This document shows, one piece after another, positions 14,324 to 35,027 of a DNA stretch of 64,000 nucleotides; positions within the stretch are counted from its first letter, which is position 1, and each line of letters starts with the position of its first letter. Source of the DNA: Eledone cirrhosa (Eukaryota). The translations under genes were made by a program, and so were the position numbers. The notes below the pieces were generated by a model. The model made no database searches. It was given only the letters and a program-made list of their open reading frames with translations, and was not told the origin of the DNA. The stretch spans positions 344,720,001-344,784,000 of the forward strand of contig OZ024741.1 in assembly GCA_964016885.1 (NCBI GenBank), given 5' to 3'.

Positions 14324-14513
14324 ATAGGAAAAAGTATGACCCCGACGGCAGAGCTCAAGCCGTTTTGACGGCTATTACCAGAAATAGCTGTCGAAACGGC
14401 TTGAGCTCTGCCGTCGGGGTCATACTTTTTCCTATTTCCCACTCTACTACCCTATGTATTGAGTACTCTGGTGCGTTATGGTCCATCTGGTGCCTTACCA
14501 CAATTCCTTTGTT
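14324..14513 (+). mobile_element. Short non-coding element 'P1' with 5' inverted duplication (Penelope-like pLTR-type, 3' half of a hammerhead)
   Basis: ~53-bp arms 14324-14376/14383-14435; GAAA-CGGC-ttgagctct-GCCG-TC-GGGGTC; ends CCACAATTCCTTTGTT-(AT)n; homologues at 22920, 24736, 25742, 34437 and 34848. Confidence 0.7.
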
Positions 14514-14537
14514 ATATATATATATATATATATATAT

Positions 14538-16997
14538 ATCATCATCATCATCATCAGGTTTAGCGTCCGTGTTCCACGCTTGCATGGGTTTGGACGGGGG
14601 TTTTCCCACTTGAGGCAAGAGTGGTTGTCTTGCTCGCATAGGACTGTCTGGCGGGTTTTCTACAGTTGGATGCCCTTCCTAACACCAACCACATTTACAG
14701 TGTGGGGCTGGGAGGTTTTTACCGTGTTGCCTACACGGCCACATTACAGCGTGGACTGTCTGGCGGGTTTTCTACAGCTGGATGCCCTTCCTAACACCAA
14801 CCACATTTACAGTGTGGGGCTGGGAGGTTTTTACCGTGTTGCCTACACGGCCACATTTACAGCGTGGACTGTGTGTTTTTTGTCGTGACACCTACACGAT
14901 CTCATTTGTTTCGGCCTGGATGTTGTGGGACCAACATAACTTTACATTGAAAGGGGCGGTGTGGGTGGGGTGGAGGTGGTGTGTTTTGATAGAGATGCCT
15001 ACTGACTGTAGTAGGTTTTTACTTTGTATTTAGGTAAGGCGGGTCTTCTCTATTACTGAGTACCGCCAAAGGTCTCGGTCCAGTGACATTGTCTTGGAGA
15101 GGTGTAAGCGTGTGAGGTCGGAATTTATCAGCTCGTCCCATGTTTTTCTGGGTCTGCCTACTCCGTGGCTACCGTCTATCTTTATTGCCCTGCACTTTGT
15201 TATACAGCTGTCGTCTTTCATGCGCATCACGTGACCGTACCAACGTAGCCTTCTCTCGAGTAAACAACATCTGATCCCTCTTATTTCTAATTTTTTCCTT
15301 AGTTCGTTTATGCTTTGCTGTTCACGTATATTACTATTGCACATCCAGCGGAGCATGCAAGCTTCGTTCCTCTCTAGTCTGCGTATATCCTCTGCACACA
15401 ATGCCCAGGTCTCACTGCCATGCAGCATTGCTGTTCGTATGCAGGCATCGTATAACCTGCCTTTCATTTTTAGGGAGAACCCTCTAGCGGCTAATAGTGG
15501 TATAAGCTCTCTGAACTTTTTCCATCCAGTTCTGACTCTAGCTACTGTACTTTCAGAGCACCCTCCCCCACTGCTGATTTTGTCACCCAGATAACGGAAG
15601 CTGTCCACTATTTCTATAGAACCCTCTGCGCAGTTGAAGGAGCTAGTATTTTGTGGGCACTTGCTGCTACTTATTGCACCAGAGCACCGGCCACATGTAA
15701 AATCTATGTTCTTAGTTAGCTTACCTGTGATCCCACTACATCTTTTATGCACCCATACTTTGCATTTGGGACATAAAATGGAGTTTCTACCTACGCCTTT
15801 CCTACACACTGAGCATGGCCATTTCCCCGATGGGACCGCCGCCTTATTTTCTTTCCTACAAACTAGAACTTTAGTCTTAGCCAGGTTAATTTTAAGGCCT
15901 TTTGATTCTAGGCCGTGCTTCCACGTTTGGAATTTCTTCTCTAGTTCGGTCATTGATTCAGCTATGAGCGTTAGATCATCTGCGTATAGGAGTTCCCATG
16001 GGCAGCCGGTCTTGAACTCCTCTGTTATAGCCTGAAGGGCAATAATAAATAGTAGGGGGCTAAGAACAGAGCCCTGATGGACACCAACTTTTACGCTAAA
16101 CTCTTCACTATATTCGTTGTTAATTCTAACCTTACTGACTGTTTCTTTATACATGGCTTGTATAGCTCTCACAAGCCATTCGTCAACACCTAGTTTTCTA
16201 AGAGACCACCAGATAATGGAACGGGGGACTCTGTCGAAGGCTTTCTCCAAGTCGACGAAAGCTAAGTATAGGGGTTTACTTTTAGCTAGGTACTTCTCCT
16301 GTAGTTGTCGTACAATGAAAAGAGCGTCTGTGGTACTTTTGCCTGATACAAACCCGAACTGCATTTCATCTAGATCAATTCTCTCTCTGATTAGTTGCGC
16401 TATTACTTTTTCCGTGACCTTCATGACCTGGTCGATTAATTTAATGCCTCTATAGTTACTCCTATCTAGGGCATCTCCTTTTCTCTTATAGCAGTTAACG
16501 ATGATGCCGCTACGCCATTCCTTCGGAACAACCCCATTCTGTACGACTTGGTTAACTATCCGGGTGACCATGGTGTGTCCCACCGAACCAGATGCCTTCA
16601 GCATCTCAGCAACTATTTCCGAAGGCCCAGCCGCCTTACCCGTCTTCATATCTTTGATTGCCTTACTTATTATACTACCTTCAACTAACACTGCTGGTCC
16701 CTCTATTGGATCGATCTGGGGGAGACTGTCTTTCTCCCATTTGTTCTCCTCATTTAGAAGCCTTTCGTAGTGACACTTCCAAGCTACCTTCTTATCAGTG
16801 TCGGTGATGGCAAGTATGCCATCATCGTTAAGTACACACTTCTCCCCGACAATATCACGGTTTTCCTTGACACATTGCCTGGCAATCCTGAACACCTCAC
16901 GTTTTTGGTCCTCACGTTGTAGAACATGCTTGAACTTTCTTTCCTCTGCTTCCCTTCTTGCGAAGTACACTTGTCTCCTAGCTTCCCTCCTGGCCAC
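14538..16997 (-). mobile_element. 5'-truncated RTE-clade LINE, young copy
   Basis: Open RT ORF, ~490-bp 3'UTR, (ATG)n tail; both ends abut (TA)n. Confidence 0.95.
15030..16997 (-). CDS. RTE ORF: reverse transcriptase with inserted C4HC3 (PHD-like) finger; N-terminal endonuclease lost by truncation
   Basis: KAAGPS, NYRGIKL, QFGF, FVDLEKAFDRVP, GVHQGSVLSPLLF, LLYADD, FRYLG, RLRWYGHVMR, GRPRKTW; the first ~29 aa of the 684-aa ORF are microsatellite read-through. Confidence 0.95.
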   Translation of the reverse strand: MARREARRQVYFARREAEERKFKHVLQREDQKREVFRIARQCVKENRDIVGEKCVLNDDGILAITDTDKKVAWKCHYERLLNEENKWEKDSLPQIDPIEGPAVLVEGSIISKAIKDMKTGKAAGPSEIVAEMLKASGSVGHTMVTRIVNQVVQNGVVPKEWRSGIIVNCYKRKGDALDRSNYRGIKLIDQVMKVTEKVIAQLIRERIDLDEMQFGFVSGKSTTDALFIVRQLQEKYLAKSKPLYLAFVDLEKAFDRVPRSIIWWSLRKLGVDEWLVRAIQAMYKETVSKVRINNEYSEEFSVKVGVHQGSVLSPLLFIIALQAITEEFKTGCPWELLYADDLTLIAESMTELEKKFQTWKHGLESKGLKINLAKTKVLVCRKENKAAVPSGKWPCSVCRKGVGRNSILCPKCKVWVHKRCSGITGKLTKNIDFTCGRCSGAISSSKCPQNTSSFNCAEGSIEIVDSFRYLGDKISSGGGCSESTVARVRTGWKKFRELIPLLAARGFSLKMKGRLYDACIRTAMLHGSETWALCAEDIRRLERNEACMLRWMCNSNIREQQSINELRKKLEIRGIRCCLLERRLRWYGHVMRMKDDSCITKCRAIKIDGSHGVGRPRKTWDELINSDLTRLHLSKTMSLDRDLWRYSVIEKTRLT

Positions 16998-17159
16998 ATA
17001 TATATATATATATATATGTCTGTGTGTGTGTATGTATATATGTGTATATATATATATACATATATATATATATATATAGAGCAAAAAGAGTATGTCTTTT
17101 TATTATTTATTACATATCTCATAGTGCTTTATATAAACGATATATATATATAATAATAA

Positions 17160-17340
17160 TAATAATTGTTTCTACGTTAGGCACAAGGCCAGCAATTACC
17201 CAGTACATTACTGGTACTTTATTTTATCGACCTCATAAGGGTGAAAGGCAAAGTTAACCTCGGCGGGATTTGAACTCAGATTGTAAAGGGACGTAACTAT
17301 GCTGGAAAGCATGTCCGACCCTCTACCGAAACTGCCATTT
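17160..17340 (-). mobile_element. SINE family A
   Basis: Reverse complement of the 12590 family with (TAA)n tail. Confidence 0.85.
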
Positions 17341-17473
17341 CAAGGACGAATCGTTACTCCTTCATTATGTTTATTTGTTGGTGACGCACGTTTCGCTACT
17401 GATCGCTACTGTATCGATCTAGCCCGACTCTGGAATCAATATCTCATTGGACCTCTGCGTTACACTCCCTGGA
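17341..17473 (-). mobile_element. Short element homologous to 52062-52392
   Basis: CAAGGACGAATCGTTACTCCTTCATTA..GGTGACGCACGTTTCGCTACTGATC and terminal GTTACACTCCCTGG shared with that element. Confidence 0.6.
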
Positions 17474-33830: not shown

Positions 33831-33887
33831 ATATATATATAGAGATAGATAAATATACACGGGTGTGTATGATTGTGCATCGAAGAT

Positions 33888-34270
33888 TATATTAATAAAA
33901 GGAATTCCAACGTTGTCTGATTTACTCGTTTTATTTACAATCCTTTAAAATTTATAATGGTATTAGAATGAAATAGTATGGTAGAATATTAAATGTTAAG
34001 TGTTAATTGAACAAGTACTTTCATGCTTTCAGAATCTTCAGGTTCATATTCAGTGGTGACAGTCAAGTTTGCAATTTTCAACTGTGAAAATTGCAAACTT
34101 GACTGTCACCACACATTTTGAACCTGAAGATTGCGAAAGCATGAAAGTACTTGTTCAATTAACATTTAATATTCTACCATACTATTTCATTCTAATACCA
34201 TTATAAATTTTAAAGGATTGTAAATAAAACGAGTAAATCAGACAAAGTTGGAATTCCTTTTATTAATATA
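33888..34270. mobile_element. ~380-bp palindrome (two ~190-bp arms, 4-nt loop), Penelope-like pLTR-type
   Basis: Centre GCAATTTTCA-ACTG-TGAAAATTGC; each arm carries a hammerhead motif. Confidence 0.8.
34118..34158 (+). ncRNA. Minimal type I hammerhead ribozyme motif (mirror copy on - strand 34007-34046)
   Basis: TTGAAC-CTGAAGA-tTGC-GAAA-GCAt-GAAA-GTAC-TT-GTTCAA. Confidence 0.7.
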
Positions 34271-34436
34271 TATATATATGTATGTACATATGTATCTATA
34301 TCTTTCTATCCATCTATCCATGTATCTATATATATATGGAATTTGGCCGGAGTATCGCTAAAAGCTTTCTCCGATAAAGTATTTATATATATATACACAT
34401 ATATCTCTCTATCTCTCTCTCTATATATATATATAT

Positions 34437-34633
34437 AACGAAGGAAATGTGGTAAGGAACCAGATGGACCATAACGCACCAGAATACTCAATACTTCGGG
34501 TAGTAGAGTGGGTAATAGGAAAATGTTTTTTTTATTTTTTTTTTTTTTTATTACCACGCTAAAAATTTTAATTTAGTCCAGAAATAGCCGTCGAAACGGC
34601 TTGAGCTCTGCCGTCAGGGTCAAACATTTTCCT
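34437..34633 (-). mobile_element. Element P1, rearranged copy
   Basis: 3' end at 34437-34525 plus inverted GAAACGGCTTGAGCTCTGCCGTC segment at 34578-34633. Confidence 0.7.
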
Positions 34634-34847
34634 ATATATATATATATATATACATACATAAATTCAGAACACGATATATATAGTCTGAACCAAGAGTATT
34701 TTGAGAAATAACTATTGTATGAAATTATGTAGTAACTGTATGTCTCCCTATCTTTGTAGCTATCTCTTTATTTCTCTTTCTTTCTATAACTTTTTTCTCT
34801 CCATCTTTCCCTGTATGTGTATATATATATATATATATATATATATA

Positions 34848-35027
34848 AGAACAAGTAAGACCCCGACGGCAGAGCTCAAGCCGTTTCGACGGCTAATTCT
34901 AGACGCCATCGAAACGGCTTGAGCTCTGCCGCCGGGGTCTTACTTGTTCCTATTACCCACTCTACTATCCTAAGTATTGAGTACTTTGTTATGGTCCATC
35001 TGGTTCCTTACCACATTTCCTTCGTTA
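34848..35027 (+). mobile_element. Element P1 with inverted duplication
   Basis: GAACAAGTAAGACCCCGACGGCAGAGCTCAAGCCGTTTCGA...TCGAAACGGCTTGAGCTCTGCCGCCGGGGTCTTACTTGTTC; tail CCACATTTCCTTCGTT(AT)n. Confidence 0.75.

What the first reader, a model, noticed from the sequence alone, without database searches (positions are those of the whole stretch)
14324..35027. Family 'P1': TA-targeted ~130-190 bp elements that end or fold back at nearly the same point inside a half-ribozyme
Seen: copies at 14324, 22920, 24736 (tail only), 25742, 34437 and 34848, with relatives at ~30557, ~44311 and 46620. The core copies share the 3' end ..CCACATTTCCTTCGTT-(AT)n. The five longer copies carry GAAA-CGGC-ttgagctc(a/t)-GCCG-TC-GGGGTC (with small variants), which reads as the GAAA/stem III/GUC/stem I half of a hammerhead. 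None has the CUGANGA half. Each stops within ~20 nt upstream of GAAA (..CCAGAA(A/T)TAGCCGTC), and three continue there as a ~50-bp inverted duplication with different junctions. Inference: either reverse transcription repeatedly stalls and template-switches at this RNA structure, or a non-autonomous element propagates with only the substrate half of a ribozyme that could be cut in trans.
Basis: partly seen in the sequence, partly recalled or inferred. Interest (0 to 1): 0.72.

Follow-up and report, generated by a model that had tools for sequence, protein, structure and literature searches.

The report
Penelope stubs record their RNA's ends
These short hairpin inserts are stubs of a very abundant Penelope-type jumping gene, and they lack half of its hammerhead ribozyme motif likely because they were copied from an RNA that starts inside that motif, while a small minority begin exactly at the predicted cut site, which likely records the ribozyme cutting in the living animal.

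Summary
The copies are real. They are 3'-end stubs of a young Hydra-like Penelope element (RT plus GIY-YIG ORF, 3.54-kb unit). One tail 28-mer has 25,871 exact matches. The parent has the 'missing' ribozyme half, with a U3-A8 core instead of CUGANGA (5,633 matches). Breakpoints cluster sharply: 56 of 100 tail-selected copies start in one 17-nt stretch and 8 pass it. Counts fall from 27,951 to 8,680 over four bases at the A of TTAGTC. That A carries untemplated bases (30/79 vs 4/78 at a control; G 15 vs 1), as a true, likely capped, RNA start would. The two arms start at two fixed sites and share subfamily marks (43/50), which points to two-ended priming on one RNA. 44 of 61 TA-joined copies around the predicted cut start exactly at it. 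A fixed RT stall is disfavoured: 29 of 30 ORF-joined copies read through. Trans-cleavage is unsupported. No RNA data. The scan noted the same reading on other DNA of this genome.

The parts
14324..14376 (-). Copy 1, short (inverted) arm: from about +9 of the inferred RNA start to priming site B (+61)
14378..14515 (+). Copy 1, long arm: +4 to tail end (+141); GAAA, stem III, GUC at 14413-14415, stem I 3' strand, 80-nt tail
22918..23056 (-). Copy 2, long arm (+2 to tail end)
23056..23102 (+). Copy 2, short arm (+15 to site B); shares a private stem-III loop change with the long arm
24733..24771 (+). Tail-only remnant (last 39 nt)
25740..25875 (-). Copy 4, single arm (+6 to tail end), 100% identical over 136 nt to the end of a full unit in L063
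34435..34528 (-). Copy 5, tail arm, truncated near site B
34547..34635 (+). Copy 5, second arm from -28 (past the wall, inside the helix II loop) to site B; subfamily B
34845..34904 (-). Copy 6, short arm (+2 to site B)
34905..35028 (+). Copy 6, long arm (+13 to tail end, 5-bp deletion in the tail)
44305..44361 (-). Family C relative, starting at the A of TTAGTY
   Evidence: 74% to long copy L320
46645..46746 (-). Distant relative (68-69% identity) with GAAA, stem III, GUC and a tail-like part
30565..30591 (-). Weak tail remnant
   Evidence: E 0.007

Best explanation
The inserts are 60-140-nt stubs of a Hydra-like Penelope retrotransposon, likely made when both ends of a cut (TA)n tract prime reverse transcription at two fixed internal sites of one RNA and both copies run off that RNA's 5' end, which likely is a capped transcription start inside the loop of hammerhead helix II. 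Shown: the parent, the two fixed 3' ends (+61 and +141), the sharp wall at +1, untemplated bases at +1, shared subfamily marks in both arms, and a minor peak of starts at +42, the predicted cut. Inferred: the two cDNAs are joined head to head by end joining, which gives the varied junctions. An RNA starting at +1 lacks the enzyme half and so would not cut its own 5' end. Copies starting at +42 come from read-through RNA that the complete U3-A8 ribozyme has cut. Long and tandem copies come from a different template with no end at +1 (long read-through or circular RNA). My odds by step: Penelope stubs 0.98, two-ended priming on one RNA 0.8, a true RNA 5' end at +1 0.8, capped Pol II start 0.6, in-vivo cutting 0.75.
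For: Parent with an intact 719-aa ORF, pseudo-LTR and full hammerhead fold. Wall: 56 of 100 tail-selected copies start at -9..+8, none at -45..-15, and 8 pass. In 116 evenly spaced 10-kb stretches, 33 of 43 arms start at or after -4. Genome-wide counts are 27,951 at +1 and 8,680 at -4. Base before +1 in TA-joined copies: non-parental 30/79, G 15/79, against 4/78 and 1/78 at a matched internal T|AG control (Fisher p 4e-7 and 3e-4). Family C: non-parental 40/75, G 19/75. G before the cut site is only 2/44 (p 0.007 against the pooled +1 data). An extra G marks capped full-length L1 insertions (PMC11702581, passage). TTAGTY is kept while the loop differs. 79 of 100 copies have an inverted arm, 67 ending at +61. 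Arms share subfamily marks in 43 of 50 inserts; shuffles give mean 14, maximum 24. A purified Penelope-type protein nicks and extends both strands from two internal RNA sites (PMC11167929). Cut site: 44 of 61 start at +42; direct TATAT joins number 26 there against 4, 4 and 2 at neighbouring bases.
Against: Only 1 of 30 ORF-joined copies ends at +1, so most long templates do not start there and a second template class has to be assumed. These 30 include units of three tandem arrays, so they are about 25 insertions. In family C, C is added as often as G (18 vs 19 of 75), so the cap inference is only suggestive. Among inverted junctions no G excess was seen. No downstream promoter element was recognised at +28 (by eye). 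Arm concordance could also come from gene conversion within palindromes. Covariation support for the stems is weak: one pair with a two-sided change, 28 of 500 shuffles as high. 24 of the first 100 cores pair C3 with A8, a mismatch. No RNA or enzyme data.
Confidence: 0.62

Rival explanations
1. Template boundary or stall: early, poorly processive reverse transcription stops at a protein-bound or folded element in the helix II loop (like a telomerase template boundary), and only established complexes read through.
For: In subfamilies A and B the wall lies in the 3' strand of a small apical hairpin. It explains read-through by ORF-joined copies without a second RNA class. Some arms end 10-28 nt past the wall, inside the loop (4 of 43; window copy 5).
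Against: In family C the motif is predicted unpaired and the hairpin is different, yet the wall is at the same A. The RT passes two stronger G+C stems first. Untemplated bases with a G excess sit at one base.
Confidence: 0.17
2. SINE-like self-propagation: the short copies keep an internal promoter at +1, are transcribed themselves and are mobilised in trans, so the family is partly non-autonomous.
For: It would explain why RNAs starting at +1 give almost no ORF-joined copies. Copy number is very high. Penelope promoters include sequence downstream of the start (PMC2377424, passages).
Against: Junctions vary from insert to insert, so hairpin masters are not copied whole. The three commonest short-copy signatures all occur in long copies too. 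Most hairpin copies have their +1 region trimmed.
Confidence: 0.13
3. The +1 end is made by RNA processing (nuclease cut, splice acceptor or branch point), not by transcription initiation.
For: The site reads TTTAG|TCC, like a 3' splice site, with a branch-like motif 4 nt upstream in subfamilies A and B.
Against: No constant exon precedes the site in the copies. Many copies keep the AG. Family C lacks the branch-like context. G addition is seen at +1 but not at the ribozyme cut.
Confidence: 0.08

Closest known systems
Hydra clade of C-terminal EN+ Penelope-like elements, including Hydra-1_Obim (Craig et al. 2021, PMC8557442; sections 10 and 11, passages and supplement hits seen)
   Same: Single RT-EN ORF with DKT, CxCX5C linker, CxxC and CxH; RWR where Hydra has RWK; (TA)n targets; hammerhead in the pseudo-LTR; by-eye likeness to the Hydra-1_Obim protein.
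   Different: Unit 3.54 kb (Hydra generally <3 kb). Core U3-A8 or C3.A8 with a ~40-nt helix II insert, whereas Hydra-1_Obim is listed with a canonical core and an 8-nt loop, so this is another family. Tail about 80 nt, not 30-40.
Canonical Penelope insertion structure: inverted 5'-truncated copy plus one-sided tail (PMC8557442 passages; PMC3846280 passages)
   Same: Head-to-head arms, tail on one arm only, partial tandems.
   Different: Here about nine in ten copies are 60-140-nt arms that stop at one base. PMC3846280 explains head-to-head arms by self-priming on an antisense template; these data favour two-ended priming on the sense RNA.
Poseidon PAc of Anolis in vitro (Frangieh et al. 2024, PMC11167929; main text parts 1-2 of 4 read)
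   Same: Both target strands cut and extended; two internal initiation sites that bound the tail; uncut RNA is the main template.
   Different: That study found no RNA-seq reads at the ribozyme cut site; here genomic copies show a peak at it. In the parts read it does not address where cDNAs end.
U3-A8 hammerheads of Cercyon elements (Cervera and de la Pena 2014, PMC4209133; parts 1-2 of 4 read)
   Same: U3-A8 core swap, G10.1-C11.1, palindromic loop III, proposed circular RNA template.
   Different: Not a minimal ribozyme: 5-6-bp helix III and a long helix II that holds the inferred transcription start.
L1 twin priming and cap-derived extra G (PMC11702581, passages)
   Same: Second priming from the other DNA end; extra G at the RNA start.
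   Different: In L1 the two cDNAs abut; here they overlap by about 60 nt, giving a hairpin, and both priming sites are fixed.

Membership tests
EN+ Penelope-like element | Single ORF with RT and C-terminal GIY-YIG endonuclease | tested here: met
   719-aa ORF in L061 with YRDDG at 348 and VIY..YIG at 591; Pfam gave 0 families, so this rests on motifs
EN+ Penelope-like element | Pseudo-LTRs, partial tandems, inverted 5'-truncated copy, one-sided tail | tested here: met
Hydra clade | DKG changed to DKT | tested here: met
   DKT at 117
Hydra clade | CxCX5C linker; CxxC and CxH around the conserved E and N | tested here: met
   positions 572, 670, 698
Hydra clade | N-terminal RWK motif | tested here: inconclusive
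   RWR at 37-39, a conservative variant
Hydra clade | (TA)n insertion | tested here: met
Hydra clade | Canonical hammerhead and length generally under 3 kb | tested here: not met
   U3-A8 or C3.A8 core, 8 canonical of 5,686; 3.54-kb unit. These are described as usual traits, so I file it as Hydra-like
Hydra clade | Placement in the RT tree; absence of the CCHH motif | not tested
   No tree or alignment with reference proteins was built
Type I hammerhead ribozyme | Three stems around U4 G5 A6 N7, A9, G12 A13 A14, free N7, 3-8 pair | tested here: met
   Fold; 92.8% of cells paired, 3-8 pair in 8 of 11; N7 takes all four bases. Covariation is weak
Type I hammerhead ribozyme | Self-cleavage after GUC | not testable with these tools
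   Indirect only: peak of copy starts at the cut
Non-LTR retrozyme | Tandem non-coding units, each with a complete hammerhead | tested here: not met
   Short copies are single hairpins with half a motif; tandem units carry the ORF. Definition from bioRxiv 10.64898/2026.07.22.740005, part 1 of 5
MITE (DNA transposon) | Fixed terminal inverted repeats with a constant interior | tested here: not met
   Centres vary among copies and one arm carries a one-sided tail

The most novel reading that the evidence does not exclude
This retrotransposon splits its jobs between two RNAs. A capped mRNA starts inside its own ribozyme, so it cannot cut its 5' end, is translated, and yields only abortive hairpin inserts. 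A ribozyme-excised circular RNA from read-through transcripts is the real replication template and gives the long and perfect tandem copies.
Probability: 0.3. Interest if true: 0.75.

Novelty: new variant of a known kind. Interest (0 to 1): 0.52.

Why it matters
How Penelope-like elements form inverted arms and what their hammerheads do are stated as open questions (PMC8557442, passages; PMC11167929 found no in-vivo cut reads). Tens of thousands of young stubs in one genome act as a natural run-off map. They point to one start base and one cut base, and each can be tested directly by cap mapping and an in-vitro assay. They also mean that a common hairpin repeat, which could be filed as a MITE or a microRNA-like stem, is abortive retrotransposition.

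Tried and rejected
Rfam: only microsatellite and hairpin matches below gathering scores among the 150 listed of 257; no hammerhead family listed. Pfam: 0 families for the ORF. No RNA holder listed; read laying was not used. One search hits were not used for breakpoint counts because best-hit ranking selected copies sharing the query's chance 5' base. Naiad and Nematis were considered from memory and dropped once DKT, CxCX5C and the C-terminal EN matched the Hydra description. Pol III A/B boxes and a DPE were looked for by eye and not found. Splice-acceptor model rejected (no constant exon). Pure snap-back rejected as the general route: site-B arms can be longer than the tail arm (L061). Two core-like 10-mers at window 63.4-63.6 kb are chance hits. 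Tandem units are identical within two arrays but one array also matches an unlinked copy, and a third array differs by 11 substitutions, so this is weak support for rolling-circle copying. Lunse et al. (PMC5785218) is not held, so whether C3.A8 cores were tested there is unknown to me. Searches for prior reports. None of the listings or the passages read described this wall or a genomic peak at the cut; the library lacks most subscription papers and Repbase. Supplements: only keyword hits in PMC8557442 were seen; unseen supplements of PMC11167929 and PMC4209133 may bear on priority.
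Full report
Observation. None has the 5' half of the hammerhead core. Four of the five longer copies start within about 17 nt upstream of GAAA. The 34437 copy differs: its GAAA half is a second arm on the other strand, starting about 46 nt upstream of GAAA.

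Parent. The window lies in a 3.0-Gb genome. One hit (L020) ran past the truncation point, and its upstream part found 40 scored copies at 99-100% identity. These belong to a 3.54-kb unit with a 719-aa ORF (RT, CxCX5C linker, C-terminal GIY-YIG) followed by about 1.2 kb of pseudo-LTR. DKT, CxCX5C, CxxC, CxH and (TA)n targeting match the Hydra clade as described in section 11 of PMC8557442. RWK is RWR here, the unit is longer than usual, and no tree was built, so I call it Hydra-like. Pfam found nothing. A tail 28-mer has 25,871 exact matches and the reversed control has 0.

Ribozyme. Long copies fold into a type I hammerhead with a 5-bp stem I, a long helix II with a ~40-nt insert, and a 5-6-bp stem III with a palindromic loop. 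The core is not CUGANGA. 5,633 matches have A at position 8 and 53 have another base, 8 of these canonical C3-G8. In the first 100 listed, position 3 is U in 76 and C in 24, and position 7 takes all four bases (hand count). U3-A8 is already reported for Cercyon elements (PMC4209133). The stem II 5' strand of the divergent family C was predicted from its short copies and found in 209 places. Formal covariation support is weak (one two-sided pair; 28 of 500 shuffles as high).

The wall. I number from the A of TTTAGTCC as +1: GAAA is +19..22, GUC +39..41, site B +61, tail end +141. Among 100 copies chosen only by the tail 28-mer (about the first 25 Mb of contig C1), 56 start at -9..+8, 35 at +12..+80, 8 include the whole ribozyme, one is an AT-rich alignment artefact at -14, and none starts at -45..-15. 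In 116 evenly spaced 10-kb stretches, 33 of 43 arms start at or after -4, 4 end in the loop and 6 carry the 5' core. Genome-wide, 27,951 arms match exactly from +1 but only 8,680 from -4.

Two priming sites, one RNA. 79 of the 100 copies have an inverted alignment. 67 of these end at +61 and 72 within +59..+64; two are distant pieces, not adjacent arms. Long copies also end at either +61 or +141. In L061 the +61 arm is the longer one, so it cannot be a fold-back copy of the tail arm. Both arms could be typed in 50 of the 100 inserts; 43 carry the same six-base subfamily signature, against a shuffled mean of 14 and maximum of 24. Gene conversion could add to this. It fits the in-vitro behaviour of PAc, which cuts and extends both strands from two internal sites (PMC11167929).

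What the wall is. In copies joined straight to TATAT, the base before +1 is T 49, G 15, C 9, A 6 (79 distinct places among the first 100 of 1,349 rows). At a matched internal T|AG it is T 74, A 2, G 1, C 1 (78 places among the first 100 of 466 rows); Fisher p is 4e-7 for any non-parental base and 3e-4 for G. Family C gives T 35, G 19, C 18, A 3 (75 places among the first 100 of 171 rows). These are hand counts after removing overlapping duplicate rows. Untemplated bases mark a real template end. An extra G marks a cap in L1 (PMC11702581). C is as common as G in family C, so the cap is suggestive, not shown. TTAGTY is kept across families whose loops are unrelated, and it is predicted unpaired in family C. 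Its likeness to the Drosophila initiator is recalled, not tested. Penelope's start site lies in its pseudo-LTR (PMC2377424, passages; PMC8557442 section 10).

A second RNA end at the cut. Of 61 distinct TA-joined copies starting near the predicted cut, 44 start at +42, 13 keep one to three upstream bases and 4 start at +43 (all 78 rows). Like-for-like direct joins number 26 at +42 against 4, 4 and 2 at neighbouring positions (p 4e-9). CpG decay could mimic a few, but only 3 undecayed sources of that form were seen. G precedes the cut in 2 of 44, against 34 of 154 at +1 (p 0.007). This class is minor (78 rows against 1,349, with patterns that are not strictly comparable). It likely records cleavage in the germ line; cis or trans cannot be told apart.

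Result against the simple model. Of 30 copies chosen by the tail-to-ORF junction, 1 ends at the wall (-3) and 29 read through; 13 of them run to the edge of the fetched DNA. They include units of three tandem arrays. One of the two ORF-joined copies in the tail-selected set ends at the wall (L310). A fixed stall of about 90% per passage is therefore excluded, but so is the idea that all templates start at +1. The simplest repair is two template classes. An RNA starting at +1 would lose its downstream priming sites when the second, complete ribozyme cuts, and so would give only stubs. Long copies would come from read-through or circular RNA, as proposed in PMC4209133. This step is inference. 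Identity within tandem arrays is weak support only.

Prior knowledge. The element class, inverted arm, tail and U3-A8 core are published. In nine literature searches I saw no report of the wall, the added G or the cut-site peak. Papers seen: PMC11167929 parts 1-2 of 4; PMC4209133 parts 1-2 of 4; PMC8557442 sections 10-11, passages and supplement keyword hits; bioRxiv 10.64898/2026.07.22.740005 part 1 of 5; passages of PMC3846280, PMC11702581, PMC6765202 and PMC2377424; all others as listings only. Earlier scan notes on other DNA of this genome give the same readings. I had recorded the start-site and two-site priming reading before and run the cut-site test. Those notes are not independent support.

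Verdict. Observation confirmed, interpretation partly supported. These are abortive two-ended insertions of a Hydra-like Penelope element. Their ends likely map the element's RNA start and its ribozyme cut. New variant of a known kind; interest 0.52.

Noticed in passing
parent unit about position 2937-2942 (L063 about 6278; also L032-L060, L194-L221): A 5-7-nt site in the pseudo-LTR has 15 variants among 66 reads of otherwise ~99% identical copies (loci overlap, so some reads repeat). It is usually the same within one insertion but differs between the arms of L261. Possible mutation hotspot or junction.
   Followed up: partly
G000:C1:437200308-437211081 (L218-L221) and C1:91476495-91487302: Four-unit head-to-tail arrays of the 3.5-kb element; L218-L221 are identical over the 1.4 kb compared.
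   Followed up: partly
L061 about 5260-5306: A 13-codon upstream ORF lies in the tail and stops right after the tail end, about 90 nt before the main ATG (read by eye).
   Followed up: no
one search list; L099, L151, L231, L284: About a quarter of complete cores have C3 opposite A8, with no A or G at position 3 in 100, suggesting a tolerated C.A mismatch lineage.
   Followed up: partly
window 7580 to at least 10200; window 59761 to at least 60814: An 80-bp tandem satellite (57 overlapping 300-nt matches) and a 26-bp minisatellite (76 such matches).
   Followed up: no
window 14540-14990: Another repeat starting with (CAT)n abuts copy 1 and holds an internal duplication of about 120 bp.
   Followed up: no
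L063 1154-1612; L090; L095; L077: Fragments of other, more distant Penelope-like ORFs (70-81% DNA identity for the blast hits) near or among the sampled stretches.
   Followed up: no
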